A DNA stretch of 61,738 nt from a virus (IMGVR_UViG_3300033144_001147:1-61738); one strand, 5' to 3'; counted from the first letter of the stretch, positions 33,893 to 46,646 are shown. Made by a program: numbers and translations. The notes: generated by a model not told the origin, from the sequence alone.

Positions 33893-34175
33893 ATCTTTTT
33901 ATTTTAAATTTTAATACATTACATTTCGGGTACAAATACTGAAGAATCTTAAGTCTATGATTTCCTTGAACCACCCAATACTTTCCTTCTTTCTTAGTAA
34001 CCTCTATTAATTCTTTTAATCCGTTATTATCTATATCGTGCAAAAGCCCAGTCCAATCATAACCTCTATCATTAGTTATTAACTGATGTATAGTGTAATT
34101 AGTAAAGTCTCCATTAATATCACAAAGTCTAATATACTCTGTAGTATACTGACTTTTATAATATTTTTTACTCAT
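33876..34175 (-). CDS. ParB/Srx-like N-terminal domain protein, 99 aa
   Basis: DIDNNGLKELIEV...YWVVQGNHRLKIL (GxxR box). Confidence 0.65.
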   Translation of the reverse strand: MSKKYYKSQYTTEYIRLCDINGDFTNYTIHQLITNDRGYDWTGLLHDIDNNGLKELIEVTKKEGKYWVVQGNHRLKILQYLYPKCNVLKFKIKRYETNR

Positions 34176-35790
34176 CCTTATTTATTCTCGCGTGAGTAAT
34201 TATAGCGTTAGTAGTTAATATGGTAGTAGCTACACTAATAGCGTTAGACAATGCTTGAGTGGTTACTCTTGCTGGATCAATAACCCCCATATCAAACATA
34301 TTTCCATACTCTCCTGTTACCACGTTATATCCTATATTCTTTTTTTGTTTAGTAGTAAGGCCTCCTTCTGGAAGATTAGGAATAAACCCTGGCTTATCAT
34401 ATATATCTTTTTTATCTAATCCTGCATTTTTTAGAATTTGACGTAAAGGAGCTTCTAAAGCTTCTTTTAATATTTTATGAGAAGTCTTTTTGCCATTATA
34501 AGTTTGAGCTATATTGTATAATAACAACCCTCCTCCTGGCACAATTCCTTCTTGAAGGGCACTGCGCACCGCGCATACCGAGTCATCGACTCGGTCAAAT
34601 TTTTCTTTTTGTTCTATGTCAGATGTAGCACCTACATGTATACATCCTATCCCTCCAACTAAAGAAGCTATTCTTTCATTAATAAAATCCTTCTCATGTT
34701 TAGCTGTTAATCTTTCTTGTTGGTCTCTTAATTCTTCTACTCTATCAATAGTCTCATTAGTAATCTCTCCGTCTTTAATAATGATAGTAGAGTCTTTACC
34801 TACTATAATCTTATCTGCATGCCCTAAGTCTTCCATTCTAATTAGAGATAAATCATCTCCTGTTTTTTCAGAAAAGTATTTAGCTCCTACAGAAAATGCT
34901 ATGTCTTGCATTAACTCGTGAGTTTTATATCCAAATGACGGAGGTTGTATATTACAAAACTTTAATCCATTTCTTTGAACATTGGCTGCCATTGTATTAA
35001 TAACATTCTGTCCGCAATCTCCAATAATTAAAAGCTTGTCTCCCGCATTAATAATAGGTTTTAATATATTCTCAATTTGTAATATGTTACTAATCTCTGA
35101 ATCACATATAAGAATCTTCACTCCTTCATATACACACTCGTCTTTTCTTTGGTCATTAATAAACATAGGAGAAGTCCATCCTCTATCTACTTTAATACCA
35201 TTAGTTACTTCAGCAAAAGTCTTATCTGTTTGAGATCGCTCTACAGTTACTATCCCATCTTTACCAACTTCTTTATATGCTTTAGCTATAATCTCACCAA
35301 TCTCTTTATCATTATTCGCAGAGATGGTTGCTATATCTTCTAACATATTCTCAGTAACCTCAACAGCCTCTGTCTTTATTTTATTATCTATTATCTCTCC
35401 TTGAACTCTGAGCTCTCTAATTATTTTAATTTTATTATCTCCTTCTTTTATATGTTTCTGACCAGCCTTCACTAAAGCTTCAGTTAATACAATAGCAGTA
35501 GTTGTTCCATCACCAGCGGTATTAGCTGTTTTTTCAGAAGCTTGTTTCATCATTCTAACCGCAAGGTTTTCGATTGGGTCAATAAGAGATATTGATTTAG
35601 CTACAGTTACTCCATCTTTAGTAACGGTTAATCCTTGAGTATGTTCTGTTGATTCTATCAATACAGTTTGCCCTTGAGGGCCAAGAGTTGATTTAACTGC
35701 ATTAGATATTTTAGAGATTCCCGAGGTAAGCTTTGTTCTTGCGTCTTCATTAAACGCTAAGTCTTTTGGAATGTATCCAGAGTCTTTCAT
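34168..35790 (-). CDS. groEL: Chaperonin GroEL, 540 aa
   Basis: TLGPQG, VTKDGVTVAKSI, AGDGTTTA, EGIVPGGG, GVIDPARVT. Confidence 0.97.
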   Translation of the reverse strand: MKDSGYIPKDLAFNEDARTKLTSGISKISNAVKSTLGPQGQTVLIESTEHTQGLTVTKDGVTVAKSISLIDPIENLAVRMMKQASEKTANTAGDGTTTAIVLTEALVKAGQKHIKEGDNKIKIIRELRVQGEIIDNKIKTEAVEVTENMLEDIATISANNDKEIGEIIAKAYKEVGKDGIVTVERSQTDKTFAEVTNGIKVDRGWTSPMFINDQRKDECVYEGVKILICDSEISNILQIENILKPIINAGDKLLIIGDCGQNVINTMAANVQRNGLKFCNIQPPSFGYKTHELMQDIAFSVGAKYFSEKTGDDLSLIRMEDLGHADKIIVGKDSTIIIKDGEITNETIDRVEELRDQQERLTAKHEKDFINERIASLVGGIGCIHVGATSDIEQKEKFDRVDDSVCAVRSALQEGIVPGGGLLLYNIAQTYNGKKTSHKILKEALEAPLRQILKNAGLDKKDIYDKPGFIPNLPEGGLTTKQKKNIGYNVVTGEYGNMFDMGVIDPARVTTQALSNAISVATTILTTNAIITHARINKDE

Positions 35791-35821
35791 TGTGTTGTGA
35801 TTTAATTAAATTTAATTTGTG

Positions 35822-35829
35822 CAAAGATA
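35822..35829 (-). promoter_or_regulatory. -7 element of the groEL operon
   Basis: TATCTTTG. Confidence 0.65.
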
Positions 35830-35848
35830 TAAAAATAATAATTACAAT

Positions 35849-36040
35849 TGTGACGGTATGTCGAAATAAATTTTCTATATTGTATATATATATAACTCTC
35901 CTATCTCTATATATATTTTTATATATTTTGTATTTCAAATCGACATATCGACATAAATAAATATAATAGATTGAAAATCAATAAGTTAGTTTGTGTCGTT
36001 TTTTTTTACAAAGTGGAATCTTGTGTCGATGTTTGACATA
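35849..36040. repeat. Iteron-like element A (TGTCGA/TCGACA repeats around an AT-rich core)
   Basis: TATGTCGAAATA, 71-nt AT-rich spacer, TCGACATATCGACA, AATCAATAAGTTA, further TGTGTCG copies. Confidence 0.7.
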
Positions 36041-36045
36041 GATAT

Positions 36046-36082
36046 AAAAAAAAGAGGCAGACTGAATGTCTTACCTCCTTTT
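36046..36082 (-). terminator. Intrinsic terminator
   Basis: Imperfect GAGG-AGAC/GTCT-CCTC stem with flanking A8 and T4. Confidence 0.55.
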
Positions 36083-36106
36083 CACAACAGAACAAATGGG
36101 ATTCTT

Positions 36107-36325
36107 TTAGAACTCTAACTCTCTCCAGTTCTTTTTATCTTCAGCTAATTCTATACCTTCAGCTATTCTATTTATTTTTCTATCGTTTGTTACTGCTCTT
36201 TTGATACGCGCGGCTTTTGCTATACCGGTTTCTCCATCTCTTCTTTCGTTCATTAGTCTTCCGTCTTTAACATAAAGTCCGTCAACGTTGTCAGATCCAA
36301 TAAAAGGGTTTGTCATTTTTTTCAT
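36107..36325 (-). CDS. Hypothetical protein, 72 aa (first gene of the minus-strand arm)
   Basis: Own -7 element at 36341-36348. Confidence 0.7.
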   Translation of the reverse strand: MKKMTNPFIGSDNVDGLYVKDGRLMNERRDGETGIAKAARIKRAVTNDRKINRIAEGIELAEDKKNWRELEF

Positions 36326-36431
36326 AGTTCTAATTTTTTACAAAGATATAAAATTTTTTTAGATGTCTGGGGGTTGAGGGTTATTATAGGTGATACGATG
36401 GAAGTCCGGTATAGAAAAGTGATTTGTTTTT

Positions 36432-36612
36432 TGGGGGTGGGGGTGTTGTTTTCAAAATTTCCAGTCCGATTTTTTGGGGTTTTTCTGGTGGTGGTTGGTT
36501 GTGTGTGTGTGTGTCTGGTTGTGGTGGTGGTTGTGGTGGTGGTTGTTCCTCTGTCTGTCTGTCTGTCTGTCTGTTTCTCTGTCCGTCCGTCCTCCTTCCC
36601 TCGTTCCGTTCG
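36432..36612. repeat. Strand-skewed simple-repeat tract at the transcription divergence point
   Basis: GGGGGT x2, (GGT)n, (GT)n, (CTGT)n, (GTCC)n; no A on the + strand from about 36470 to 36612. Confidence 0.85.
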
Positions 36613-36841
36613 AAGATCTTAAATAATATGTATATAAATACATTAAATTGTTAAACCTTCCCCCAATTAATCGACTAAATAAAACATTTAGACACTGAAA
36701 GAAAGGGAATAATACCCCCACGAACACACCGAAACACAAACAAAACACCAAGAAAACACAAATTTTTTTTCTCTCTAACTACCTGAACATCAACAACTTA
36801 AAAATTATTTTCACACTGGGACAAAAATAAAACAAAAATTG

Positions 36842-36874
36842 TTTGTTTATATTAAAATAAATATACTATCTTTG
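36842..36874 (+). promoter_or_regulatory. Early promoter 1
   Basis: TTTG-N21-TATCTTTG, the full Bacteroidota -33/-7 consensus. Confidence 0.8.
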
Positions 36875-36921
36875 AACAATAATTAAACAAATAATAATAA
36901 TAAATTAAAAAGTTTACAACT

Positions 36922-37227
36922 ATGAAAAATTCAGTAAGACAAGAACTAACCGAACACATTAACGATTTCCAAAGAGATGAACAAAATCATTTTACAATGT
37001 TTAACGAGGACTATTATATAATAGGATATTACCAGTCTGAACAATGGTTAAAACTTCATAACATTGGAGAACTGGAAGGAGTTAATATATGTAATGAGTA
37101 TGAGATGGAACATTTCGGAGAGATACAAACAACATTCGACAACACCGAAAAACTGGTAAATCATCTTGTTTACTGGTTCGGACAAGATCTTTGTAATGAG
37201 TTAAACATTCCATTTGATAGAGAATAA
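36922..37227 (+). CDS. First early gene, acidic; candidate Ocr-like anti-restriction DNA mimic, 101 aa
   Basis: Acidic helical protein (FNEDYYIIGYYQSEQWL...EYEMEHFGE...EKLVNHLVYWFG); function inferred. Confidence 0.5.
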   Translation: MKNSVRQELTEHINDFQRDEQNHFTMFNEDYYIIGYYQSEQWLKLHNIGELEGVNICNEYEMEHFGEIQTTFDNTEKLVNHLVYWFGQDLCNELNIPFDRE

Positions 37228-37229
37228 AA

Positions 37230-37283
37230 GTTAATCTGATGAGGACTAAATGTCCGAAACTGGAAGAAATTCCAGTCATTAAC
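37230..37283 (+). ncRNA. Hammerhead ribozyme, type I (HH1)
   Basis: GTTAAT-CTGATGA-GGAC taaat GTCC-GAAA-CTGGAA gaaa TTCCAG-TC-ATTAAC: full core, three perfect stems, GUC cleavage after 37277. Confidence 0.93.
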
Positions 37284-37308
37284 AAATAATTAAATAAATA
37301 AAAAAGTT

Positions 37309-37563
37309 ATGAAAAAATGTATTTTTATAGGTAGTCTTGTTTTCTTCTCTTCTTGTGGGATAGGACACCTAACAACCGAACAACGAGGGGAGATAAACAA
37401 GATAGACAAACAAATGGATGAGTTATGGATTAATTACTCTTACTCAATCGATAGTTTGTATATTAAAAGGGATAGTATCATAGAGAACAACGGAAAATTC
37501 AAAGAATGTTGTATAAAAACCTCTAATGATGTGTATAAACATGAAGGACTAACAATAGAATAA
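37309..37563 (+). CDS. Putative lipoprotein, 84 aa
   Basis: MKK-hydrophobic-FFSS|C signal peptidase II-type signal. Confidence 0.65.
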   Translation: MKKCIFIGSLVFFSSCGIGHLTTEQRGEINKIDKQMDELWINYSYSIDSLYIKRDSIIENNGKFKECCIKTSNDVYKHEGLTIE

Positions 37564-37565
37564 TT

Positions 37566-37841
37566 ATGAACTTACCTAAAATATCAAACATAATCGGACA
37601 CGGAGGAAACGAGGTAAAAAATCAGTTTATCATCCGAACTAAAGGAACAACAATTTTTCAGTCTTACGATAGTATTATTTGTATGATTAATCATAACACC
37701 GGAATAACTACACTGGACAAAAATTACTGGGACTACTCAACAACAACCGGAAAATATAGAAATATATTTTTAGGAGAGAGTAAACAAGATACGGAAAAGA
37801 AAATAAAATCAAAAGAGTATAAACTAAAAAACCTTAATTAA
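37566..37841 (+). CDS. Early hypothetical protein, 91 aa
   Basis: NQFII...FQSYDSII...WDYSTTTGKYRNIFLG. Confidence 0.8.
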   Translation: MNLPKISNIIGHGGNEVKNQFIIRTKGTTIFQSYDSIICMINHNTGITTLDKNYWDYSTTTGKYRNIFLGESKQDTEKKIKSKEYKLKNLN

Positions 37842-37842
37842 G

Positions 37843-37971
37843 ATGAACTACCAAGAAAATGAAATATCGTATTGTGTAAACTATAAAGGACAAAAAATAA
37901 AACCTTATAGGAGTTTACCGACATTACCTAAACCGAGTTTAATTAGAAGAATAATAAACTTTTTTAAGTAA
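37843..37971 (+). CDS. Early hypothetical protein, 42 aa (not on track)
   Basis: MNYQENEISYCVNYKGQKIKPYRSLPTLPKPSLIRRIINFFK. Confidence 0.6.
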   Translation: MNYQENEISYCVNYKGQKIKPYRSLPTLPKPSLIRRIINFFK

Positions 37972-38021
37972 TACTGATGAGTGTTTAATACACGAAACTG
38001 GTAGAAATACCAGTCTATTAC
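37968..38021 (+). ncRNA. Hammerhead ribozyme, type I (HH2)
   Basis: GTAATA-CTGATGA-GTGT ttaat ACAC-GAAA-CTGGTA gaaa TACCAG-TC-TATTAC; GUC cleavage after 38015. Confidence 0.93.
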
Positions 38022-38039
38022 AATAAAAAATATATAAAA

Positions 38040-38357
38040 ATGAAGACAAAAGAAGATATTAAATCTGAAATGATGAGGGACTCTGACTTTAGACAAGAGT
38101 TAAAAAGTGTTTTACTTATAGACTCAAATGTAAAATCAGTTAGACAAAGAATGGAAACAACCCTATCAAATATACAATATCAAAAGGGAGTTATGATGTG
38201 GGATGATGAGGAGAAAATTGAACATTGTATTGAGATACTTAAAATACTGGAGTATGAAACAACACCAGTATATGAGGATCAATGTTGGGATTGTAGAGAG
38301 GATATACAATACACGGACTTACATCCCTTTTGTCCGGAATGTAATCAACACCAATAA
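38040..38357 (+). CDS. Early protein with C-terminal zinc ribbon, 105 aa
   Basis: CWDC...CPEC. Confidence 0.7.
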   Translation: MKTKEDIKSEMMRDSDFRQELKSVLLIDSNVKSVRQRMETTLSNIQYQKGVMMWDDEEKIEHCIEILKILEYETTPVYEDQCWDCREDIQYTDLHPFCPECNQHQ

Positions 38358-38369
38358 AATTAAATAGAT

Positions 38370-38534
38370 ATGGAAAATAAAGAGTATAAATATATATATC
38401 TACCTAATGGAGATTATATAGTAATTAAATTTGATATAGAGGGAGTTGTTTATGATAGATTTAATAAAGATGATGAACATAAAGAATCTTATGGATATGA
38501 TTTGTATGAGGAATTAAAATTAACTAAAATATAA
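38370..38534 (+). CDS. Early hypothetical protein, 54 aa (not on track)
   Basis: MENKEYKYIYLPNGDYIVIKFDIEGVVYDRF... Confidence 0.65.
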   Translation: MENKEYKYIYLPNGDYIVIKFDIEGVVYDRFNKDDEHKESYGYDLYEELKLTKI

Positions 38535-38538
38535 TAAA

Positions 38539-38718
38539 ATGAAAGAGAAATTTTTATCAATGAGGATGGGAGAACATTTAGAAATGAAAAGGTTCGGACT
38601 ATCAACAAAAGAAATAATAAGACTTAATACAAATGAATGGGAAGTAAATTGTTTTGTAGATGGATGGGAAACTTATTATATGAACATAAAAGAACTAATA
38701 AATTATTTTACTAACTAA
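38539..38718 (+). CDS. Early hypothetical protein, 59 aa (not on track)
   Basis: MKEKFLSMRMGEHLEMKRFG... Confidence 0.65.
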   Translation: MKEKFLSMRMGEHLEMKRFGLSTKEIIRLNTNEWEVNCFVDGWETYYMNIKELINYFTN

Positions 38719-38733
38719 TTAAATATAAAAATT

Positions 38734-39021
38734 ATGAAAATTGAAATTGAATTAAACGAGTTTACTAAATCAGTTGGAACATATATAGATCCTATGTTAA
38801 ATATAGGATATATTCGTTCAGATGAAAGAACAAAAATACAAGTAGTGTATTTTAACGATATAGAGGAGATAACCGAGTTATATGATAGATATAAATATGA
38901 TATACAAAACGACTGGGACACGGAAGAAACACCAACACTGGAAGAATTTTTACACTCTGAACACATTTACATTCTACTGGGTTGTTATAACGGAGAAGGA
39001 CACGAGGTTCTATACTCTTAA
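38734..39021 (+). CDS. Acidic early protein, 95 aa
   Basis: ORF with A-rich start. Confidence 0.75.
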   Translation: MKIEIELNEFTKSVGTYIDPMLNIGYIRSDERTKIQVVYFNDIEEITELYDRYKYDIQNDWDTEETPTLEEFLHSEHIYILLGCYNGEGHEVLYS

Positions 39022-39043
39022 ATTAAATTAAATAAATAAAATT

Positions 39044-39496
39044 ATGGAAAACTGGAAAACACAATATGATGAAGGACAATTTTTAATGGATGAAATTGAC
39101 TTTTTTAAGAATGATAAACAAGAGTTTCTTGTTAGTATACTATGGGATGAAGATAGAGAGGTTGAAAGTGTAACGGATAAAGAAATTGAGGATCATTTTT
39201 ATAGTGATTGTTATTTGTATGAAATACATAGAGAACAATTTTTGAATGATATGAACGAGGAGTTTATGGACTATATAGATGATGAGGTTTATGTTGAGGG
39301 TAAAAATATGGGATGGAGAAATAGGACTGGATATAAAGAGTTTACACTGGAGAGAGGAGAGGACATCTTCTATAAAATTATACCTGAATGTGATTTAACT
39401 TATTATATAGAAAAAGTAAAAGAAAAAGAATATCAAGTAAAAATATCTCACCACGACTCACCAATGGGAGAACATTATACAATTAAAATTAAATAA
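39044..39496 (+). CDS. Acidic early protein, 150 aa
   Basis: MGWRNRTGYK...SHHDSPMGE. Confidence 0.8.
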   Translation: MENWKTQYDEGQFLMDEIDFFKNDKQEFLVSILWDEDREVESVTDKEIEDHFYSDCYLYEIHREQFLNDMNEEFMDYIDDEVYVEGKNMGWRNRTGYKEFTLERGEDIFYKIIPECDLTYYIEKVKEKEYQVKISHHDSPMGEHYTIKIK

Positions 39497-39497
39497 A

Positions 39498-39734
39498 ATG
39501 AAAAGAATAGAGAAACTAAACAAATGGAGTAAATTATCCGACAAAGACAAGTCAGATAAAATTGTAAACGAAATGGACTGGACTGAAAAAGACACAAAAG
39601 AATGGAACGAATTTAAGAAAAATCTACCAAATTTAATAAGAGAAGGGTTGCTTTTTGGGTTCGGAATGAGTGTTTTTCTATTAATTTTAGGGTTCTTTTT
39701 ATATCAATTTCTTCAAGTAATATACAAAATATAA
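39498..39734 (+). CDS. Early membrane protein, 78 aa
   Basis: C-terminal TM helix. Confidence 0.7.
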   Translation: MKRIEKLNKWSKLSDKDKSDKIVNEMDWTEKDTKEWNEFKKNLPNLIREGLLFGFGMSVFLLILGFFLYQFLQVIYKI

Positions 39735-39753
39735 AAAATAATTAAACAAAAAC

Positions 39754-39785
39754 TTGACTTGTATTATTATTTTATTATACATTTG
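39754..39785 (+). promoter_or_regulatory. Early promoter 2
   Basis: TTG-N21-TACATTTG, preceded by AAACAAAAA as in promoter 1. Confidence 0.7.
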
Positions 39786-39817
39786 TCAAAAATTATTAAT
39801 CTATTAAAATTAAAAAA

Positions 39818-40237
39818 ATGGGAACAAGAAGTTTAACAAAGGTTATAGAAACCTACACGGACAAAGAAAACAAGAAACACAAAACAAACCTTATATGTAT
39901 GTATAGACAATATGATGGTTATCCAAGTGGACACGGACAAGAGTTATCAGAATTTTTGTTCGGTAGACAAATTGTAAACGGATTTAGTTGTAGACACGAA
40001 AACGAAAAATATAACAACGGAATGGGATGTTTCGGAGCAGAATTAATATCCTACTTTAAGACTGGAATAGGAAACATATATGTCCAAGATCCAAATAGTG
40101 AAATGGATTATGAGGACTTTGAATATATAATAGAAGGAAATGATGAGGATGGGTTAAACATAAAAGTAAACAATTATGATGGAGTTGAAGTGTTTAATGG
40201 TAGTGTAGGTTCATTTAGAGATTTTTGTAATGAATAA
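39818..40237 (+). CDS. Hypothetical phage protein, 139 aa
   Basis: MGTRS...YRQYDGYPSGHG...NGMGCFGAEL. Confidence 0.8.
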   Translation: MGTRSLTKVIETYTDKENKKHKTNLICMYRQYDGYPSGHGQELSEFLFGRQIVNGFSCRHENEKYNNGMGCFGAELISYFKTGIGNIYVQDPNSEMDYEDFEYIIEGNDEDGLNIKVNNYDGVEVFNGSVGSFRDFCNE

Positions 40238-40247
40238 AATAAAACCT

Positions 40248-40352
40248 ATGAGAGTTAAGAAGGTTGGTAAAAATACCAACAAGAGTTATACCGAATGGAT
40301 GAAATACATCCATAAGGAAGTAAGTAAAATAAATAAAAAGAAAATAAAATGA
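40248..40352 (+). CDS. Basic 34-aa protein (not on track)
   Basis: MRVKKVGKNTNKSYTEWMKYIHKEVSKINKKKIK; ATGA-coupled to the next gene. Confidence 0.55.
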   Translation: MRVKKVGKNTNKSYTEWMKYIHKEVSKINKKKIK

Positions 40353-40645
40353 GTTTATACCATAAATTAAGATTAGATCCACCTTTACTAAAAATAGAGG
40401 GAAAACCGAGAGAAATTAAAATTGATGTAGTATCAGTTATGTGTGATAACAAGTATAGATGGAGTGTATATAAAAACGATAATGGGGATTACAAAATTTC
40501 TACATCCCCTCAAGCGTTCTCTAATTTTCAAACGAAATATAAGAAAGATGATATTGAGTGGGAAATGGATGGAGGAGACTGGGAGGAAGTATGGGAGATG
40601 ATTAATAGTGGAACAATTAAAATAGAAAAAATAAAATATAGATAA
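40349..40645 (+). CDS. Hypothetical protein, 98 aa
   Basis: Operon-packed ORF. Confidence 0.7.
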   Translation: MSLYHKLRLDPPLLKIEGKPREIKIDVVSVMCDNKYRWSVYKNDNGDYKISTSPQAFSNFQTKYKKDDIEWEMDGGDWEEVWEMINSGTIKIEKIKYR

Positions 40646-40646
40646 T

Positions 40647-40901
40647 ATGAAAAATTATAGTAAAGAAAAAGTAGAGAAATACTGGACTGAATTAATATCA
40701 GAACATTTAGTTGGTAAAACAATAACAAAAGTAGAATATATTGGGGATGAAGAAATGGAAAAAAATATGTGGTATAAAAAACCCATAGCCATTCAGTTAG
40801 ATAATAAAGATTGGTTAGTGCCTATGATGGATGATGAAGGGAATGATGGGGGAGCAATATCAACCTCATTCAAAGAACTACAAACAATACCAGTAATATG
40901 A
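40647..40901 (+). CDS. Hypothetical protein, 84 aa
   Basis: LVGKTITKVEY...PMMDDEGNDGGA. Confidence 0.75.
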   Translation: MKNYSKEKVEKYWTELISEHLVGKTITKVEYIGDEEMEKNMWYKKPIAIQLDNKDWLVPMMDDEGNDGGAISTSFKELQTIPVI

Positions 40902-41023
40902 AAAAAGATACTAACTTTTATATAGAGTGTTTGAAAAGAGAATTAAGAAAGCCATTAAATAAACAAGATTTTATGTATATGAGATGGTTAGATGAAATGA
41001 TAAACGATAAATCAAATAAATAA
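40898..41023 (+). CDS. Hypothetical protein, 41 aa (not on track)
   Basis: ATGA-coupled; MKKDTNFYIECLKRELRKPLNKQDF... Confidence 0.55.
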   Translation: MKKDTNFYIECLKRELRKPLNKQDFMYMRWLDEMINDKSNK

Positions 41024-41045
41024 ATAACTAAACTTAAATTAAATT

Positions 41046-41747
41046 ATGCCAAACTGGGTTTATAGTGGGATAACAATATCTACCCCACTTACAAAAAAAC
41101 AAGAAAAGATATTACAAAAAATAGAAAAGACTGGATCAATATGTGAGTATTATGTTCCAAGAAACAAAGAGATTTTAGAGACAAGAAGTCCAGCCAGTAT
41201 TGTTTCTCAAAAAGAATATGATGAGATACAAATTAAAAACAAAAAGAAAGTAGAAAATCATAAGGAGGGAGAACACTTACATTTAGATCGTTCAATTACA
41301 CAAAAGACAAGTGATAACCTTATCAAAAAGTATGGAACAAATAATTGGTATGACTGGAGTAACGAAAACTGGGGAACAAAATGGGGAGATTGTGATTTAG
41401 AGATAGATGTTGAAGAGGGAGATATAAGATTTGAGAGTGCGTGGAGTCCTATTTCTAATAAAATAATGGATATGTTTATACAAGACTTTCCTACTATATA
41501 TTATCATTTTGAAGAAGAACAAGGATGGGGAGCAGAATATGATTTTGAAGATGGAGAAATGACACGAAGTTTAGATTATGATTATCCTAATTGGGAGGAT
41601 GGTGTAGAGTATAAGGATTGTTTTATAACAAAACTAATTGATGATCATCCACATTTTGAGGAGGGTGCCGGATATTATTTAGAGTGGGGACAAGAGTATT
41701 GTGGAAAAACATTAGAGGAAGCCAAAGAATATATTAATCAATTTTAA
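41046..41747 (+). CDS. DUF1281/YubB ferredoxin-like domain protein, 233 aa
   Basis: MPNW...WYDWSNENWGTKWG...FESAWSP. Confidence 0.75.
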   Translation: MPNWVYSGITISTPLTKKQEKILQKIEKTGSICEYYVPRNKEILETRSPASIVSQKEYDEIQIKNKKKVENHKEGEHLHLDRSITQKTSDNLIKKYGTNNWYDWSNENWGTKWGDCDLEIDVEEGDIRFESAWSPISNKIMDMFIQDFPTIYYHFEEEQGWGAEYDFEDGEMTRSLDYDYPNWEDGVEYKDCFITKLIDDHPHFEEGAGYYLEWGQEYCGKTLEEAKEYINQF

Positions 41748-41758
41748 AAATAATTAAT

Positions 41759-41956
41759 ATGATACTTGATGATAAGATAGATAACTATATAAAATGGTAT
41801 AGGGAAGAATGTAACGATCCTTATGGGGAGTTAAGATGGTTGATTGAATGTGTATTAGAGGATGAGAATAATAAAAAGTTTATGATGGAGATACTTAATG
41901 ATACTGCCGAAATATATAGGTTACGAGACAAAATAGAAATAACAAAACATAAATAA
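41759..41956 (+). CDS. Hypothetical protein, 65 aa
   Basis: Operon-packed ORF. Confidence 0.65.
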   Translation: MILDDKIDNYIKWYREECNDPYGELRWLIECVLEDENNKKFMMEILNDTAEIYRLRDKIEITKHK

Positions 41957-41957
41957 T

Positions 41958-42188
41958 ATGAAATATAAATTAGAAACATATAAGTTTATAGACTATATGT
42001 TCCAAGATAAAGATGATTATCTTTACTGGGGAAAACGAGTAGCAGAAGAAGTGCAAGATGGAGAAGTAACTATTACCTTACAAGGATTGTTAGATGGTTG
42101 TGGAGAAATACCTATATGGTATTTTGATGTAGAGGATGAGAATGAACACCCTGAATATATAGACTCTTCAAATATAAAACTAATATGA
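41958..42188 (+). CDS. Hypothetical protein, 76 aa
   Basis: Operon-packed ORF. Confidence 0.65.
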   Translation: MKYKLETYKFIDYMFQDKDDYLYWGKRVAEEVQDGEVTITLQGLLDGCGEIPIWYFDVEDENEHPEYIDSSNIKLI

Positions 42189-42313
42189 GTGAGAGAGAAG
42201 ATATATTAGAGTGGTATGATAATTTTGTAGACTATATTGAAGAAATGGATATAAACTTATATAACGAAGCGTGTGAACATGCCGATAAAAAAGAAGAAGA
42301 TGAACTACGATAA
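42185..42313 (+). CDS. Acidic 42-aa protein (not on track)
   Basis: MSEREDILEWYDNFVDYIEEMDINLYNEACEHADKKEEDELR. Confidence 0.6.
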   Translation: MSEREDILEWYDNFVDYIEEMDINLYNEACEHADKKEEDELR

Positions 42314-42512
42314 CTGGAAATTAGCAACACCCGATTATACCGAGATGGTTAGTAGATGTTGTGGAGGAGAATATGAGGAAGTGTATAGCGAGATGTATGA
42401 TGAGGATAAATTATTATGTAGTGAATGTAATGAGTATTGTGAGTCAATAGAGGATTATGAATATAAAGAAATACAAAGAGAAAATTATTTAGAAGATATG
42501 AGAGATGAATAA
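42300..42512 (+). CDS. Small Zn-finger protein, 70 aa (start corrected to 42300)
   Basis: MNYDNWKLATP...SRCCG...CSECNEYC. Confidence 0.7.
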   Translation: MNYDNWKLATPDYTEMVSRCCGGEYEEVYSEMYDEDKLLCSECNEYCESIEDYEYKEIQRENYLEDMRDE

Positions 42513-42515
42513 ATA

Positions 42516-42623
42516 AAGAATAAAGGTAGGAGAACAGAGGTGATAGCTGAAATACGTGGAATGAAAAGATCCTAATGTAGCCATCCTTGAGTGCACTCTT
42601 AACGAACTACTACCTTTATTTTT
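42516..42623 (+). ncRNA. Candidate structured RNA 1
   Basis: Perfect 11-bp closing stem AATAAAGGTAG/CTACCTTTATT in a non-coding gap. Confidence 0.4.
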
Positions 42624-42631
42624 TAATAATT

Positions 42632-42732
42632 AAATATCAATAGGTGTTGAATGATGTAAGTCCCGATATGGCAGAAACAACTTAATAGGAATGAAAACAT
42701 TTGCGTTATCAATAACCTGCCTTATGATATTT
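42632..42732 (+). ncRNA. Candidate structured RNA 2
   Basis: AAATATCA/TGATATTT closing stem and long G-U-rich inner stem. Confidence 0.4.
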
Positions 42733-42748
42733 TTAATAAAATAAAAAA

Positions 42749-43051
42749 ATGAAAGAAATACAAGAGTTAATACTAAAAGAAAAACAAAAGGATAGTCCTA
42801 ATAAAGAATATATCCAGTTTTTACAACAACTATCGGATCAGAAAGAGTTAAGTGAAAATTTAGTTAATGAAGTTAAGCAAAGAAACTTTTTAGAAAAACA
42901 ATATAAACAAAACACTATTGAGCTTGATGATTACTTTAAGTATAGTGGAGAAGTGGAGCAATACAAAAATATAGTAGATCGTTTAGTTTGGAAAAACAAT
43001 ATGGTAGACCGGCTAAAAGAATATATGAAAGATAAAAAATTAAATAAATAA
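42749..43051 (+). CDS. Hypothetical protein, 100 aa
   Basis: ORF with A-rich start. Confidence 0.7.
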   Translation: MKEIQELILKEKQKDSPNKEYIQFLQQLSDQKELSENLVNEVKQRNFLEKQYKQNTIELDDYFKYSGEVEQYKNIVDRLVWKNNMVDRLKEYMKDKKLNK

Positions 43052-43069
43052 CTAATTAAAATTAAAAAA

Positions 43070-43258
43070 ATGAGTGAATACAAAGAACAACAACCGATTA
43101 AAACAATAGAACTTGAAACATGTTGGTATGAAATGGATGATGGAACAATATATTATGATACCGATACAATTAGAGAGGAGTTTGAACGGATAATAGAATG
43201 TCTTGAGAGTGGAGAGGCAGTAGAAAAATCTGCAATTGATATGATTTTTGGGAATTAA
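43070..43258 (+). CDS. Acidic hypothetical protein, 62 aa
   Basis: ORF with A-rich start. Confidence 0.65.
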   Translation: MSEYKEQQPIKTIELETCWYEMDDGTIYYDTDTIREEFERIIECLESGEAVEKSAIDMIFGN

Positions 43259-43282
43259 TAACAATTAAAAATAAAAAGAAAT

Positions 43283-43549
43283 ATGAAAACATCAGACTTA
43301 ATTAAAGAAGTAGGAAGAGAAGTAGTTATGTTGCTACTTGAAAAAAATAAAGCATACGGAGATACTGCAAATAAACCTCCTAAAATTTTTTCTAAATTAT
43401 CAGCAAAAGAAGGGATACTGGCGAGAATAGATGATAAGTTAAGTAGAATAAAACAAGTAGGTATAAACGATAAGACTGAAGATACCTTATTAGACTTAAT
43501 TGGATACTTAATTTTATATAGAGTTCAGTGTAAAAAGGAAGAGAAATAA
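43283..43549 (+). CDS. DUF1599/nucleotide modification-associated domain protein, 88 aa
   Basis: KNKAYGD...RIDDKLSRI...EDTLLDLIGYLIL. Confidence 0.75.
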   Translation: MKTSDLIKEVGREVVMLLLEKNKAYGDTANKPPKIFSKLSAKEGILARIDDKLSRIKQVGINDKTEDTLLDLIGYLILYRVQCKKEEK

Positions 43550-43566
43550 AAAAAAGTTAAACATTA

Positions 43567-43598
43567 TTTGGTAAAGTATTGAAAAAGAATTATCTTTA
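43567..43598 (+). promoter_or_regulatory. Middle promoter
   Basis: TTTG-N20-TATCTTTA (one mismatch). Confidence 0.6.
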
Positions 43599-43631
43599 CC
43601 GACAATTAAATCTAATTAAATTAAACTTTAT

Positions 43632-43925
43632 ATGAAGAAACGTATTTTTGATCTTTACGCAACGGAAATAGCCAAGCAATTCCATCTGACACTCGATCAG
43701 ATGTTTACTAAAACAAAGAAAAGAGAGATAGTAGATGCAAGACAAATCTTGTATTACTTATGTATGGAGCGTCCTATTAGAATATCTTATATTCAAAGGT
43801 TTATGGAAGAAAACGGACATCATATTTCTCACTCTACTATTATACACGGATATAAAAAAGCAAAACAACTTATTGATGATGATAAGGATTTTGAAGAAGT
43901 AGTTAATAAAATTCAGAATGTATAG
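43632..43925 (+). CDS. DnaA C-terminal (domain IV)-like DNA-binding protein, 97 aa
   Basis: KTKKREIVDARQILYYLC...HSTIIHG. Confidence 0.8.
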   Translation: MKKRIFDLYATEIAKQFHLTLDQMFTKTKKREIVDARQILYYLCMERPIRISYIQRFMEENGHHISHSTIIHGYKKAKQLIDDDKDFEEVVNKIQNV

Positions 43926-44325
43926 TATAGAAGATGTGTTTGAACAATCTCAAAAAGATCATCACGCAATTATCACGGACAAAGGAGCAATCAACAATGG
44001 AGTAAAAATACAAAAGTTCCCCTCCAAAACCGAGATCTTAAATTGTGGGAGGAGTGGAGATTATTTTCAAGAGTGTAATAAAGAAGAGTATAAAATTTTT
44101 TTTAAGTATGGATGGAAGGAAGGAGGGTTAAGACTATCAATGTTGAATTGCAAAAGAAAGTTAGACATTGTGGAGCATAAAATAAAGGCTGAAGTAAATA
44201 CAAGAAAGAATGATAAACATATACAAAGATTAAAAAATACAAGAGAGTCTTTATTAATAAAATATTCAAATAGAAATCAACAATTAAATAAATTAACAAA
44301 TGGAAAAAAAGAAAAACATTTTTAA
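43918..44325 (+). CDS. Hypothetical protein, 135 aa
   Basis: Operon-packed ORF. Confidence 0.7.
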   Translation: MYSIEDVFEQSQKDHHAIITDKGAINNGVKIQKFPSKTEILNCGRSGDYFQECNKEEYKIFFKYGWKEGGLRLSMLNCKRKLDIVEHKIKAEVNTRKNDKHIQRLKNTRESLLIKYSNRNQQLNKLTNGKKEKHF

Positions 44326-44911
44326 GGAATTATCATCCATATCTATAAAAGGTAAAACCGATAAGAAAGGAAAGTTTGATTATTTATCATGGGCTTCAGC
44401 GTGGAGTATGATTAAATCAGAACACCCTGAAGCACAAAGAAAAGTATATGAGTCTCAAGAAACTGGACTTAACTTTTTTACTGATGGTAAAACTGCTTAT
44501 GTAAAAGTAGGTATAACTATAAATAATTTAGAGCATATAGATTATTTACCAGTAATGGATTACCGAAACAACTCAATATCTATGGATAAGATTAATTCTA
44601 TGGATGTTAATACAGCCATTCAACGATCTACTGCCAAGGCAATTGCGATGCACGGATTAGGATTAAGTTTATGGATAGGAGAAGATACTATAATAACAAC
44701 TAAACCGGTTTCAACTCCATCCAGTAAAACTCCTACACCAACAAAAGATGCTAAAATAACTTTAGATATAGGAGATAACAACTGGGGTAAGGTATTAAAA
44801 TATATAGCTTCTAATAAAGAATTAGGATTACCTAAAATAGTAAAGAATTTAGAGACTAAATATAATATAAAGGCGGTAGTAAAAAAAGAACTCTCAAAAC
44901 AAATTAAATAA
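44300..44911 (+). CDS. Sak/Rad52-like single-strand annealing protein (DUF1071), 203 aa
   Basis: YLSWASAW...LPVMDYRN...DVNTAIQRSTAKAIAMHGLGLSLWIGED. Confidence 0.85.
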   Translation: MEKKKNIFKELSSISIKGKTDKKGKFDYLSWASAWSMIKSEHPEAQRKVYESQETGLNFFTDGKTAYVKVGITINNLEHIDYLPVMDYRNNSISMDKINSMDVNTAIQRSTAKAIAMHGLGLSLWIGEDTIITTKPVSTPSSKTPTPTKDAKITLDIGDNNWGKVLKYIASNKELGLPKIVKNLETKYNIKAVVKKELSKQIK

Positions 44912-45246
44912 TGGAAAAAATACCGGGGATAAAAGCTTTAATTAAAGATAAATTAGATAAACTTAACTGGGTTCAATGGGATGGATCAGGGATTACCAGT
45001 GAAGAGGGTTTTGTAGTTTGGGTAGACTATATGGAAAATATAGGGGTAGATAAAGATACTAATCAACTCTTAATTAATATAAAGTATAAAGGTCAGCCAG
45101 TATACACAACCGCAACTACTGATAAAGATACTATGGATTATTTTGGTGTATGGTATATGCAGTTAGGAGATATAATAAACGAGAGAAATGAAAAGAGAGA
45201 TAAGGAGGCGGAGGAAGAGGGTAAAATAAAATTTGAAAAACTATAA
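44911..45246 (+). CDS. Hypothetical protein, 111 aa
   Basis: Coupled to the annealing-protein gene. Confidence 0.7.
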   Translation: MEKIPGIKALIKDKLDKLNWVQWDGSGITSEEGFVVWVDYMENIGVDKDTNQLLINIKYKGQPVYTTATTDKDTMDYFGVWYMQLGDIINERNEKRDKEAEEEGKIKFEKL

Positions 45247-46106: not shown

Positions 46107-46108
46107 TT

Positions 46109-46372: not shown

Positions 46373-46392
46373 TCTTTACTCCTTGACAAAGG

Positions 46393-46446: not shown

Positions 46447-46454
46447 GTCTTTTT

Positions 46455-46629: not shown

Positions 46630-46646
46630 ATACCAACACTTAACAA

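What the first reader, a model, noticed from the sequence alone, without database searches (positions are those of the whole stretch)
36221..39649. A 3.4-kb GpC-free zone at the start of the early arm, with ten consecutive alanine-free proteins
Seen: reading line by line I find no 'GC' dinucleotide between the one at 36219-20 and the one at 39650-51 (3,429 bp). GpC is self-complementary, so both strands lack it. Only three occur up to about 40780 (39650, 40037, 40514), then it returns gradually and is common elsewhere; CpG, GG and CC remain present, and dozens of GpC would be expected by chance. All Ala codons begin with GC, and the ten ORFs from 36922 to 39734 (859 aa) have zero alanines. TGC, GGC, AGC, CGC and codon-junction GC are also missing, as is GC in intergenic DNA and both ribozymes, so the constraint acts on nucleic acid, not on protein or tRNA-Ala. 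Known: first-entering phage DNA (T7, T5) is depleted of restriction sites, and many sites contain GC (GCGC, GGCC, AGCT, TGCA, GCNGC, RGCY of CviJI). Inference: this is the first-injected DNA, purged of a two-base target to evade a GpC-directed host defence until early counter-defence proteins are made, at the cost of one amino acid. I do not know of a described case this absolute.
Basis: partly seen in the sequence, partly recalled or inferred. Interest (0 to 1): 0.95.

Follow-up and report, generated by a model that had tools for sequence, protein, structure and literature searches.

The report
GpC-free start of phage early arm
A marine flavobacterial-type phage has removed every GC dinucleotide, and so every alanine codon, from the first 3.4 kb of its early gene arm; selection keeps it that way in several relatives, which points to an unknown host factor that reads a two-base target.

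Summary
There is no GpC between 36219 and 39650, against 72.6 expected (Poisson P 3e-32). Frequency returns to normal only near 42 kb. The ten ORFs in the zone (859 codons) have no alanine. Non-alanine GpC and 701 bp of non-coding DNA are purged too.

The window is a complete 61.7-kb podophage genome of the Flavobacterium/Cellulophaga phage group. Seven other contigs of the group show the same depletion at the same place; most relatives, some equally close, do not.

Selection maintains the trait. Depleted relatives differ by about 18% in the zone, yet carry 1 GpC where 17-19 are expected. Conserved alanines are replaced by S, G, T, I or L, and synonymous GpC is removed by varied changes.

The same region lacks GTAC, ACGT, GACC/GGTC and ACAG/CTGT. 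CTAG is absent genome-wide.

Best reading, at moderate confidence: restriction-style target avoidance in the leading early DNA, taken down to a dinucleotide. Not shown: the genome end, the host, the factor, and whether DNA or RNA is read.

The parts
36221..39649 (.). Absolute GpC-free zone (3,429 bp): divergent intergenic region plus the first early operon
   Evidence: 0 GpC vs 72.6 expected
39650..42000 (.). Recovery gradient: GpC still about one third of expectation
   Evidence: 14 vs 42.3 expected; 42001-44000 has 31 vs 38.8; 1-kb profile
36107..36325 (-). Conserved small gene (72 aa) that bounds the zone on the left; GpC only in its 3' half
   Evidence: Homologues found in the related loci listed; the N-terminal half is GpC-poor family-wide, so the left boundary is fuzzy by about 100 bp
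36326..36921 (.). Divergent intergenic region. It has G/T-rich and C/A-rich low-complexity runs, (CTGT)n, and a conserved ACCTTCCCCC motif near 36655. It is GpC-free, and it is where contigs of relatives tend to end.
   Evidence: Sequence; 36221-36921 has 0 vs 20.2 GpC; no fold more stable than shuffles (z 0.90); contig ends
36843..36874 (+). Promoter-like site P1 (TTG-N21-TATCTTTG) before ORF1
   Evidence: Regex scan. One of 8 plus-strand matches in the genome, and one of two that lie in gaps between early genes. The consensus is recalled, not tested.
36922..37227 (+). Early ORF1, 101 aa, 0 Ala, pI 4.5
   Evidence: 14 of its 120 listed homologues are Ala-free; conserved A39/A53/A75 are S/G/T here. 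AF2 pLDDT 94.9, no PDB fold match.
37207..37282 (+). Hammerhead-like ribozyme 1, GpC-free
   Evidence: RF03152 at 29.1 bits (GA 56.3), core CUGAUGAG..CGAAAC..GUC
37309..37563 (+). Early ORF2, 84 aa, 0 Ala
37566..37841 (+). Early ORF3, 91 aa, 0 Ala
   Evidence: Homologues in non-depleted loci carry 2.4 Ala and 5.6 GpC per 100 aa, vs 0.2 and 0.2 in depleted loci.
37843..37971 (+). Early ORF4, 42 aa, 0 Ala
37945..38020 (+). Hammerhead-like ribozyme 2, GpC-free
   Evidence: RF03152 at 23.6 bits; core match
38040..38357 (+). Early ORF5, 105 aa, 0 Ala
   Evidence: Homologues in non-depleted loci carry 3.8 Ala and 10.0 GpC per 100 aa.
38370..38534 (+). Early ORF6, 54 aa, 0 Ala
38539..38718 (+). Early ORF7, 59 aa, 0 Ala
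38734..39021 (+). Early ORF8, 95 aa, 0 Ala, pI 4.3; among my loci found only in GpC-depleted relatives
   Evidence: tblastn hits in 3 depleted loci and 0 other loci. A lead only, because sampling is uneven.
39044..39496 (+). Early ORF9, 150 aa, 0 Ala, pI 4.45; large marine phage family
   Evidence: 200 homologues, 120 listed, 17 of those Ala-free. AF2 pLDDT 88.2, no PDB fold match.
39498..39734 (+). Early ORF10, 78 aa, 0 Ala; holds the first GpC (39650, a codon junction)
39754..39785 (+). Promoter-like site P2 before the second early operon (ORF 39818-40237)
   Evidence: In relative L055 the depletion runs well past the equivalent site.
33931..45569 (.). Wider desert of other short words, anchored on the same region. 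GTAC is absent across this whole span. ACGT is absent 36286-42553. CATG occurs once in 34819-42277. GACC/GGTC is absent 35578-43006, ACAG/CTGT 36580-42533 and GACG/CGTC 36589-43769.
   Evidence: P from 1.5e-4 down to 1.4e-18 at the rate seen outside each span
36922..52383 (+). Whole early/replication arm (Sak-type annealing protein, PDDEXK and VRR-NUC nucleases, HNH, DnaA-C-like HTH, primase/helicase, helicase)

Best explanation
The window is a complete podophage genome of the marine Flavobacteriia-phage group that includes the Flavobacterium 'elemo' and Cellulophaga podophages.

At the point where its two gene arms diverge, selection has removed the dinucleotide GpC. The divergent intergenic region and the first early operon have none, and GpC is progressively less depleted over the next 2-3 kb.

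I take this as positional target avoidance. A host factor with GpC-level specificity acts on the phage nucleic acid that is exposed first. The most likely candidate is a restriction-like nuclease, or a nuclease that depends on a GpC-specific modification, acting on the leading DNA. A 2-bp target cannot be purged from 60 kb of essential genes, so the phage purges only the stretch that must survive until early products (probably among the small acidic proteins of the zone) neutralise the factor. The price is doing without alanine in about ten small early proteins.

Shown: the depletion; that it acts at nucleic-acid level; that it recurs in a patchy way among relatives; that it is maintained by selection; and that other short words are depleted in the same place.

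Inferred: that a host factor is the agent; that it reads DNA; that this DNA enters first; and that early proteins switch the factor off.
For: 1. Scale and specificity. GpC is 0 of 72.6 expected while CG, GG and CC persist.

2. The constraint is on nucleic acid. Non-Ala GpC in coding DNA is 1 vs 18.3 expected. Non-coding 36221-36921 has 0 vs 20.2, including about 620 bp upstream of the first canonical-looking early promoter.

3. Recurrence at the same place in 7 other contigs:
- L055/L010: 3 vs 99.1 over 5,668 bp.
- L053: 3 vs 79.6.
- L082: 3 vs 42.0.
- L064: 3 vs 26.8.
- L059: 5 vs 32.8.
- L066: 12 vs 48.6.
- L081: 1 vs 18.0.
Where the locus extends far enough (L055, L082), it shows the same recovery gradient.

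4. Absence elsewhere. The trait is missing in MW202828.1 and in 19 of the 20 loci that hold 10 kb upstream of GroEL. Among those, L003 and L005 are as close to the window in GroEL (83% and 82%) as the depleted L010 (83%). It is also missing in G001 and elemoA. Such a lineage-variable trait is what a host-specific pressure would give.

5. Selection, not history. The window and L055 differ at 369 of 2,060 aligned zone positions. Re-dealing those same substitutions gives 19.0 +/- 3.7 GpC (minimum 9 in 1,000), against 1 observed. For L053 the figures are 17.4 +/- 3.7 against 1.

6. Replacements are varied and often multi-step: GCT->ATT/ATA, GCA->CTT, AGC->TCA or AGT, AAG|CAA->AAA|CAA, TGC->TGT, GGC->GGT/GGA. 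Family-conserved alanines become S, G, T or I.

7. All ±1 flanking contexts are hit. The 75 residual GpC in depleted zones show the same NGCN spectrum as 448 background GpC.

8. The restriction frame fits the group. CTAG is 0 vs 167 expected genome-wide here. GATC is 0 vs 146 in the 50-kb locus L001 of MW202828.1 (the part of that record counted). ElemoA has CATG 3/121 and no GGCC, CGCG or CCGG. The same early stretch of the window lacks GTAC, ACGT, GACC/GGTC, ACAG/CTGT and GACG/CGTC, which are common elsewhere in the genome.

9. The concept has precedent. Restriction motifs matter only in the first-injected region of Murciavirus, T5 and T7 (PMC12455610; abstract and Discussion read).

10. Depletion follows distance rather than operon. 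In L055 it continues about 2 kb past the second promoter-like site.
Against: - No host, no defence gene and no enzyme with this specificity is identified. In what I read, enzymes that read plain GC are chlorovirus methyltransferases (PMC9636781). I know of no bacterial GpC-specific nuclease.
- The physical genome end is unknown. The window's contig closes on itself with a 114-bp overlap elsewhere in the genome. One relative's contig ends overlap by 148 bp inside the intergenic region, which looks like assembly breakage rather than a true terminus. If packaging is headful, the 'first-entering DNA' argument fails, as PMC12455610 itself notes.
- The portal of the closest GenBank relative is annotated 'P22 like'. 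This is a depositor's label, but P22 packages by headfuls (recalled).
- DNA cannot be told from RNA, because GpC is self-complementary.
- No early protein of the zone matches a known anti-defence family or fold.
- The GTAC-free span extends 2.4 kb leftwards into the other arm, which a strictly one-ended entry model does not predict.
Confidence: 0.5

Rival explanations
1. The target is early RNA. A GC-specific endoribonuclease would destroy early messages. It could be a host toxin of an abortive-infection or toxin-antitoxin system (MqsR, recalled, cuts at GCU), or the phage's own host-shutoff RNase. Early transcripts are kept free of GC so that they survive.
For: The absolute zone ends within 85 bp of the end of the first operon, just before promoter-like site P2. 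The two hammerhead elements inside the operon also avoid GpC, whereas 30 of 45 such elements in the loci (the two of the window counted among the 45) contain it. Depletion tracks the likely order of expression. GpC is self-complementary, so no strand test excludes RNA.
Against: About 620 bp upstream of the first canonical-looking early promoter are equally GpC-free (0 vs 21.0). The same intergenic stretch is GpC-poor in L055 and L053. In L055 the depletion is not bounded by the operon. The words depleted alongside GpC include palindromes typical of DNA restriction sites (GTAC, ACGT, CATG). An unseen upstream promoter, or transcription by an injected enzyme, would remove the first objection.
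Confidence: 0.2
2. There is no single GpC reader. The zone is the sum of avoiding many different GC-containing restriction sites (AGCT, TGCA, GGCC, CGCG, GCGC, GCNGC, RGCY and others) met across many hosts.
For: The group plainly avoids many 4-base sites, in lineage-specific sets. The zone also lacks several unrelated words.
Against: All ten strand-symmetric NGCN classes are absent from the 3.4 kb, six of them non-palindromic. Residual GpC in depleted zones have the same context spectrum as background (75 vs 448 sites), so no subset of contexts is preferentially removed. Other 4-mers such as GATC, TCGA, CCGG, AATT and TTAA are not depleted in the zone.
Confidence: 0.08
3. Self-protection from the phage's own modification or weapon. 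Either the phage (or host) modifies GpC and the modified sites would block early transcription or attract a modification-dependent nuclease, or the phage makes a GpC-cutting enzyme against the host.
For: GC-specific methyltransferases exist in viruses (M.CviPI and two further chlorovirus enzymes; PMC9636781). The phage encodes HNH, VRR-NUC and PDDEXK nucleases.
Against: No DNA methyltransferase or base-modification family was found among the 89 proteins of the window that I scanned, nor among 40 early ORFs of three non-depleted relatives. A DNA weapon against GpC would also cut the 1,733 GpC in the rest of the phage genome.
Confidence: 0.07
4. The cause is translation or RNA folding. GpC is avoided to keep early messages unstructured or fast to translate, as argued for plasmid leading regions.
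For: Leading regions of conjugative plasmids show codon adaptation rather than consistent motif depletion (PMC13478746, abstract only).
Against: GG, CC and CG remain, so G-C pairing is not prevented. Non-coding DNA upstream of the promoter is purged too. An entire amino acid is given up. Relatives with equally similar GroEL and with homologues of several of these early genes do not show the trait.
Confidence: 0.04
5. A mutational footprint. A context-specific cytosine deaminase, or another mutator acting on exposed DNA, erased GpC without selection.
For: AC is somewhat enriched in the zone (O/E 1.32 vs 1.02 in the rest of the arm), as G->A at GpC would give.
Against: GT is not enriched (0.92). 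Replacements include transversions and multi-step codon switches such as GCT->ATT, GCA->CTT and AGC->TCA. All reading frames stay open. Avoidance persists through about 18% divergence, far beyond what re-dealt substitutions give. Amino-acid replacements are conservative at family-conserved sites.
Confidence: 0.03

Closest known systems
Leading-region (first-injected) restriction-site avoidance: T5 first-step-transfer DNA, the T7 early region, Murciavirus vs the Mme2I Type I R-M system (PMC12455610; abstract and Discussion read)
   Same: A target is missing only from a sub-genomic stretch at the start of the early genes while it is common elsewhere. Presence or absence varies between close relatives. 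Small, fast-evolving early genes of unknown function occupy the stretch.
   Different: There the target is a defined 6-13-bp R-M motif, present a few times, with a known host enzyme and a mapped entry end. Here the target is a 2-bp word with about 73 expected copies. Its removal costs an amino acid and produces a graded recovery over kilobases. Host, enzyme and genome end are all unknown.
Genome-wide avoidance of Type II restriction sites by phages (survey PMC6286503; search listing and start of abstract only)
   Same: The same phage shows this classic form too: CTAG 0/167, GAATTC 0/11 and CATATG 0/13. Relatives lack other palindromes.
   Different: Classic avoidance concerns 4-8-bp palindromes across whole genomes. 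GpC is avoided only regionally, and in all flanking contexts.
CviJI (RGCY) and M.CviPI (GC) of chloroviruses: the shortest known GC-centred specificities (specificities recalled; M.CviPI = GC confirmed in PMC9636781)
   Same: They show that proteins can read a GC dinucleotide, or something close to it, in DNA.
   Different: They are encoded by algal viruses, not known from Flavobacteriia. No homologue was sought or found here, and RGCY covers only part of the contexts that are missing.
CpG depletion of vertebrate RNA viruses under ZAP (recalled)
   Same: A dinucleotide-level immune target shapes viral sequence, including synonymous sites.
   Different: ZAP acts in eukaryotes, on RNA, genome-wide and only partially. 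Here the depletion is bacterial, regional and absolute. The analogy is to the logic only.
Leading regions of conjugative plasmids (PMC11541004, listing only; PMC13478746, abstract only)
   Same: The first DNA to enter carries anti-defence genes and is under special selection.
   Different: The 2026 study found no consistent palindrome depletion there. This phage shows extreme depletion.

Membership tests
Leading-region restriction-target avoidance (T5 FST / T7 / Murciavirus type) | The target is absent from a contiguous stretch at the start of the early genes but frequent in the rest of the genome | tested here: met
   0 of 72.6 expected in 36221-39649, vs 1,733 in the whole genome
Leading-region restriction-target avoidance (T5 FST / T7 / Murciavirus type) | The stretch is the DNA that physically enters the cell first (fixed genome end next to it) | tested here: inconclusive
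   Contig ends of relatives fall in the adjoining intergenic region in 8 of 27 truncated loci (P 2.8e-5). However, the ends sit in low-complexity sequence, one contig's ends overlap by 148 bp there, and the window itself closes elsewhere. No raw reads were available.
Leading-region restriction-target avoidance (T5 FST / T7 / Murciavirus type) | The missing word is the recognition site of a defence system of the host | not testable with these tools
Leading-region restriction-target avoidance (T5 FST / T7 / Murciavirus type) | Early genes in the stretch encode inhibitors of that defence | tested here: inconclusive
   There is no Pfam, PHROG-function or PADLOC match for the zone's proteins. The ORF1 and ORF9 models are confident but match no solved fold. 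Several proteins are very acidic (pI 4.3-4.7), which is only suggestive.
Leading-region restriction-target avoidance (T5 FST / T7 / Murciavirus type) | Presence or absence of the target varies between close relatives, as a host-specific pressure would give | tested here: met
   7 depleted contigs against many normal ones. On the ORF9 tree the label needs 3 changes, and well-supported branches force at least 2.
Selection-maintained avoidance (as opposed to a mutational relic) | The target does not re-arise despite sequence divergence | tested here: met
   1 GpC observed vs 19.0 +/- 3.7 and 17.4 +/- 3.7 expected after re-dealing the observed substitutions; 0 of 1,000 trials as low
Deaminase-type hypermutation | Losses are C->T / G->A transitions only, with collateral damage to genes | tested here: not met
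   Replacements include transversions and multi-step codon switches, and the ORFs are intact
Hammerhead ribozyme (Rfam RF03152 RAGATH-1-hammerhead / RF00008) | Conserved catalytic core (CUGAUGA ... GAAA ... cleavage-site GUC) with flanking helices | tested here: met
   Both elements have the core. The core pattern occurs in 35 of 140 loci, only on the early strand, against 0.005 expected per shuffled window.
Hammerhead ribozyme (Rfam RF03152 RAGATH-1-hammerhead / RF00008) | Score at or above Rfam's gathering threshold | tested here: not met
   29.1 and 23.6 bits vs 56.3. There were no gathering-level hits in the window or in 9 related loci.
Hammerhead ribozyme (Rfam RF03152 RAGATH-1-hammerhead / RF00008) | Helices kept by compensatory changes | tested here: inconclusive
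   The 45 distinct elements show different but self-complementary stem sequences by eye. No formal pair count was run.

The most novel reading that the evidence does not exclude
Marine Flavobacteriia (or whatever the host is) carry an immune function that recognises the bare dinucleotide GpC in incoming phage DNA or in the first phage transcripts. This would be a bacterial counterpart, in logic, of dinucleotide sensing such as ZAP on CpG. A clade of phages answers it with a GpC-free, alanine-free 'stealth' leading segment that buys time for early inhibitors. ORF8 (38734-39021), which I found only in depleted relatives, would be a candidate inhibitor.
Probability: 0.35. Interest if true: 0.92.

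Novelty: new variant of a known kind. Interest (0 to 1): 0.85.

Why it matters
If a host factor with two-base specificity is behind this, it is a kind of bacterial defence not yet described, and the phage genomes give a ready read-out of its target.

The case also shows how far sequence-level evasion can go. An amino acid is removed from ten proteins, ribozymes are rebuilt without GpC, and non-coding DNA is purged, all held in place by selection across diverged lineages.

Practically, scanning for word-free zones could do three things: locate the leading end of uncultured phage genomes, flag their anti-defence gene cargo, and predict host defence specificities from metagenomes alone.

The patchy distribution among close relatives offers natural controls for experiments.

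Tried and rejected
**Approaches that gave nothing useful**
- Known RNA families. There was nothing at Rfam gathering level in the window or in 9 related loci. A weak PreQ1 hit at 41059-41108 (21 bits vs 39) is taken as noise.
- Structured RNA in the intergenic region. The fold of 36330-36921 is no better than shuffles (z 0.90).
- tRNAs. None were found, so a tRNA-Ala story has no footing in this genome.
- Gene-content explanation. No methyltransferase or known anti-restriction domain was found in the window, nor in 40 early ORFs of three non-depleted relatives.
- Giant protein 52784-61543. It has no PHROG, no Pfam hit above cut-off and no PDB sequence match, so an injected RNA polymerase is neither shown nor excluded.
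- ORF1 and ORF9. Folds are confident but match nothing solved. BFVD gave only unnamed viral homologues. The protein atlas gave scores of 0.81 or less, which is noise level.

**Ideas I dropped**
- That the residual GpC in the gradient are mostly indispensable Ala codons. The Ala: NGC: junction split is 12:1:5, against 120:26:38 in the control arm, which is much the same.
- That the left boundary falls sharply inside the small gene and marks a terminal-repeat edge. That gene's N-terminal half is GpC-poor in all relatives.
- The sigma-70 and terminator scan gave counts no different from shuffles.

**Literature**
- Seven full-text searches listed no paper describing a GpC-free or alanine-free phage region.
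- Papers opened for passages and found irrelevant: PMC13716836 and PMC5335546.
- Supplementary files were not opened.

**Sequencing runs**
- One search listed 24 runs. 20 hold part of 34000-42000, 6 hold half or more of its sampled words, and they come from 14 studies.
- All are kept as contigs, so no termini can be read from them. No RNA holder is listed.
- Nothing was laid, so these rows are not used as evidence.

**Rows dropped before the tree**
- L010, L022, L080 and L056, as duplicates of L055, L054, L057 and L079.
- Hits shorter than 140 aa or below 58% identity.
- 62 rows were used.

Full report
**1.

A direct count finds 1,733 GpC in the 61,738-bp window. There is one gap of 3,431 bp, from the GpC at 36219 to the next at 39650. 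The next largest gaps are 477, 414 and 387 bp, and two of those (39650->40037 and 40037->40514) adjoin the big one.

From base composition, 72.6 GpC are expected in 36221-39649. CG (57 of 72.6), GG (152 of 107.4) and CC (65 of 49.0) are all present. The Poisson probability is 3e-32. The chance of such a maximal gap at the genome's own GpC rate is about 10^-38.6.

Recovery is gradual:
- 36221-40787: 3 vs 92.3.
- 39650-42000: 14 vs 42.3.
- 42001-44000: 31 vs 38.8 (1-kb profile).

The ten ORFs from 36922 to 39734 add up to 859 codons and have no alanine. The rest of the same arm has 3.9% Ala, which would give 33.1 here. The large late-arm ORFs have 7.5%.

**2. The constraint is on nucleic acid**

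- With the zone's own Ser/Cys/Gly/Arg content and the arm's codon usage, 7.8 NGC codons are expected; none is seen.
- 10.5 G|C codon junctions are expected; one is seen, the GpC at 39650.
- The 701 non-coding bases 36221-36921 should hold 20.2 GpC and hold none.

Loss of alanine is therefore a consequence, not the cause. No tRNA is encoded.

The left edge needs one correction. It falls in a conserved minus-strand gene (36107-36325) whose N-terminal half is GpC-poor in all relatives, including normal ones. The zone effectively starts with the divergent intergenic region.

**3. What the genome is**

The window is the whole record (called a virus record). Its ends overlap by 114 bp, so the assembly closes on itself.

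- The minus-strand arm carries terminase, portal, structural proteins, crAss-type muzzle-like proteins, GroEL/GroES and a 2,919-aa or longer protein.
- The plus-strand arm (36922-52383) carries small unknown genes, then recombination and replication genes.

The terminase finds 87 phage records: 68 Flavobacterium (the 'elemo' phages), 15 Cellulophaga, 2 Tenacibaculum, 1 Maribacter and one uncultured phage at 73% identity. Homologues of the early proteins come largely from marine metagenomes, judging by the source tags.

Two sites matching the Bacteroidetes promoter pattern (recalled: TTG, 17-21 nt, TAnnTTTG) lie in the gaps before ORF1 (36843-36874) and before the ORF at 39818 (39754-39785).

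**4. The trait recurs, patchily**

Not depleted:
- The closest GenBank relative, MW202828.1, has no such zone (largest GpC gap 256).
- ElemoA has none either.
- Of 50 virus-contig loci found through GroEL, 20 hold 10 kb upstream of it. One of these (L010) has a 2,505-bp GpC gap in the homologous place. The other 19 have gaps of 587 bp or less, including L003 and L005 with GroEL as similar as L010's (83, 82 and 83%).

Depleted (searches with ORF9 added these; numbers):
- L055 (same contig as L010): 3 vs 99.1 over 5,668 bp, then 12 vs 35.2, then 67 vs 78.8.
- L053: 3 vs 79.6.
- L082: 3 vs 42.0 in its first 2.7 kb, then normal.
- L064: 3 vs 26.8.
- L059: 5 vs 32.8.
- L066: 12 vs 48.6.
- L081: 1 vs 18.0.

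Around ORF9, these loci and the window have observed/expected GpC of 0.04-0.29, while all other rows lie at 0.52-1.35. L082 is the exception: its ORF9 lies in the recovery gradient, at 0.61.

On an ORF9 tree of 62 rows, five depleted rows form a clade. The window sits next to it in a well-supported 13-row group that also holds 7 normal rows. L081 lies elsewhere. The label needs 3 changes, and supported branches force at least 2. Lack of alanine could itself pull sequences together, so I do not read the tree closely.

**5. Selection keeps it so**

- The window and L055 differ at 369 of 2,060 aligned zone positions (17.9%). Re-dealing exactly those substitutions over the window's sequence creates 19.0 +/- 3.7 GpC (never fewer than 9 in 1,000 trials). 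L055 has 1. For L053 the figures are 17.4 +/- 3.7 against 1.
- In ORF9, codon by codon, the GpC of eight normal homologues correspond in five depleted ones to ACA, CTT, ATT/ATA, GTA/GTT and TCN, and to synonymous fixes (AAG|CAA->AAA|CAA, TGC->TGT, AGC->AGT or TCA, GGC->GGT/GGA).
- In the ORF9 family, 17 of 120 listed homologues lack alanine, among them 13 of the 20 closest listed (P0001, the window's own, counted). The usual count is 2-3.
- In the ORF1 family, 14 of 120 lack it and the usual count is 3-4. Three conserved alanines (A in 73, 82 and 59 of 97 rows) are S, G and T in the alanine-free rows.
- Across the early ORFs that have homologues in both classes, depleted loci carry fewer Ala and fewer GpC per 100 aa, for example 0.2 and 0.2 against 2.4 and 5.6 for ORF3.

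These patterns do not fit a deaminase-type footprint.

**6. What exactly is avoided**

The 75 GpC that survive in depleted or gradient stretches of eight loci have the same NGCN spectrum as 448 GpC from normal parts. The target therefore behaves as GpC itself, not as a few longer sites.

The same region is also a desert for other words:
- GTAC: none from 33931 to 45569, 21.6 expected at the outside rate.
- ACGT: none from 36286 to 42553, 8.8 expected.
- CATG: one in 34819-42277, 13.5 expected.
- GACC/GGTC: none in 35578-43006, 27.8 expected.
- ACAG/CTGT: none in 36580-42533, 41.1 expected.
- GACG/CGTC: none in 36589-43769, 20.4 expected.

Genome-wide, CTAG is absent (0 vs 167), as are GAATTC (0 vs 11) and CATATG (0 vs 13). 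Relatives lose other words:
- GATC is 0 vs 146 in the 50-kb locus L001 of MW202828.1, and absent in L016 and L017.
- ElemoA has CATG 3/121 and no CCGG, CGCG or GGCC.
- CTAG is normal in several lineages.

This is a phage group under heavy, host-specific pressure from readers of short sites.

**7. How I think it works**

The pattern matches the known logic of leading-region avoidance. In Murciavirus, T5 and T7, restriction motifs matter only in the DNA injected first, because early products then disarm the system (PMC12455610; abstract and Discussion).

A 4-base word can be purged from a whole genome, as CTAG is here. A 2-base word cannot, so it is purged only where exposure comes before protection, and the purge relaxes with distance.

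If entry is driven by transcription as in T7 (recalled: tens of bp per second), 3.4-6 kb corresponds to one or two minutes. That is about the time needed to make the first proteins. This step is inference.

Depletion follows distance rather than operon: in L055 it runs about 2 kb beyond the second promoter-like site.

What speaks for DNA over RNA:
- The purge covers about 620 bp upstream of the first promoter-like site (0 vs 21.0).
- The co-depleted words are palindromes of the restriction type.

What keeps RNA alive as a rival:
- GpC is its own complement.
- The absolute zone ends at the first operon's end in the window.
- An unseen upstream promoter cannot be excluded.

**8. What is missing**

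- The genome end. Eight of 27 loci cut by a contig end stop 225-651 bp upstream of the small gene, inside the intergenic region (1.15 expected; P 2.8e-5). IMG/VR classes five such near-complete contigs as linear. But the ends lie in low-complexity sequence, one contig's two ends overlap by 148 bp at 99.3%, and the window's own assembly passes through the region. Assembly breakage explains this as well as a true terminus does.
- Raw reads.
- The host and its defence. No methyltransferase, modification enzyme or known anti-defence protein was found in the phage or in the early arms of three normal relatives.
- Function of the early proteins. ORF1 and ORF9 fold confidently (pLDDT 94.9 and 88.2) but match no solved structure. 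Several zone proteins are very acidic. ORF8 was found only in depleted relatives. These are leads, no more.

**9. Novelty and verdict**

The principle, sub-genomic target avoidance in the leading region, is known. This variant is not, as far as seven full-text searches showed. What is new:
- a dinucleotide target, absolute over 3.4 kb;
- an amino acid given up;
- ribozymes and non-coding DNA remodelled;
- graded recovery;
- replication in several diverged lineages under ongoing selection.

It implies a reader of GpC for which I know no bacterial example. The enzymes of plain GC specificity that I could document are chlorovirus methyltransferases (PMC9636781).

I rate the finding real and highly interesting. 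I file it as a new variant of a known kind, and give the DNA-level leading-region explanation a probability of about one half.

Noticed in passing
whole window: CTAG is entirely absent (0 vs 167 Markov-expected), as are GAATTC (0 vs 11) and CATATG (0 vs 13). Relatives lack different words. GATC is 0/146 in MW202828.1 and absent in L016/L017. ElemoA has CATG 3/121 and CCGG, CGCG, GGCC all 0. CTAG is normal in L016, L017, L057, L099 and L110.
   Followed up: partly
window 33931-45569 and nested spans: The start of the early arm is free of GTAC, ACGT, GACC/GGTC, ACAG/CTGT and GACG/CGTC and nearly free of CATG, although these words are common elsewhere in the genome. The extents differ from word to word, and the GTAC-free span reaches 2.4 kb into the other arm.
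   Followed up: partly
window 37207-37282 and 37945-38020 (+); 35 of 140 related loci: Hammerhead-like ribozymes sit between early genes, with up to four per locus and always on the early strand. There are 45 distinct elements with different self-complementary stems. All score below Rfam's threshold, so this may be an uncatalogued hammerhead variant that cuts early polycistronic RNA.
   Followed up: partly
window 36326-36921: The divergent intergenic region holds runs of G, (GGT)n-like and (CTGT)n microsatellites, then C/A-rich sequence, and a motif ACCTTCCCCC that recurs (sometimes twice) near the contig ends of relatives. It could be an origin, a packaging site or a terminal-repeat region.
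   Followed up: partly
window 38734-39021 (+): ORF8 (95 aa, pI 4.3) has tblastn hits only in GpC-depleted relatives (L053, L055, L082) among my loci. It is a candidate lineage-specific factor linked to the trait.
   Followed up: no
window 1-114 and 61625-61738; 52784-61738 (-): The contig ends overlap by 114 bp (circular assembly). The giant ORF (at least 2,919 aa) runs off the window end and probably continues across the junction. It has no family, PHROG or PDB match.
   Followed up: partly
late arm: 5517-10682 (-) and one member of alignment A3: There are crAss-type muzzle-like proteins (PF25731 at 1.2e-10; PF25729 at 5.7e-11) in a phage that is not a crAss-like virus by size. A SET-domain protein (PF00856 at 4.2e-10) lies somewhere among the late-arm ORFs; which ORF it is was not resolved.
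   Followed up: no
L144 (MT497017.1) 10495-10570: The cultured relative elemoA carries a tRNA-Ala in its early/replication arm, as annotated in the record. The window has no tRNA at all.
   Followed up: no
window 33635-35790 (-): The phage encodes GroES and GroEL right next to the zone. GroEL is the most conserved marker of the group (59-86% identity across 50 viral contigs).
   Followed up: no
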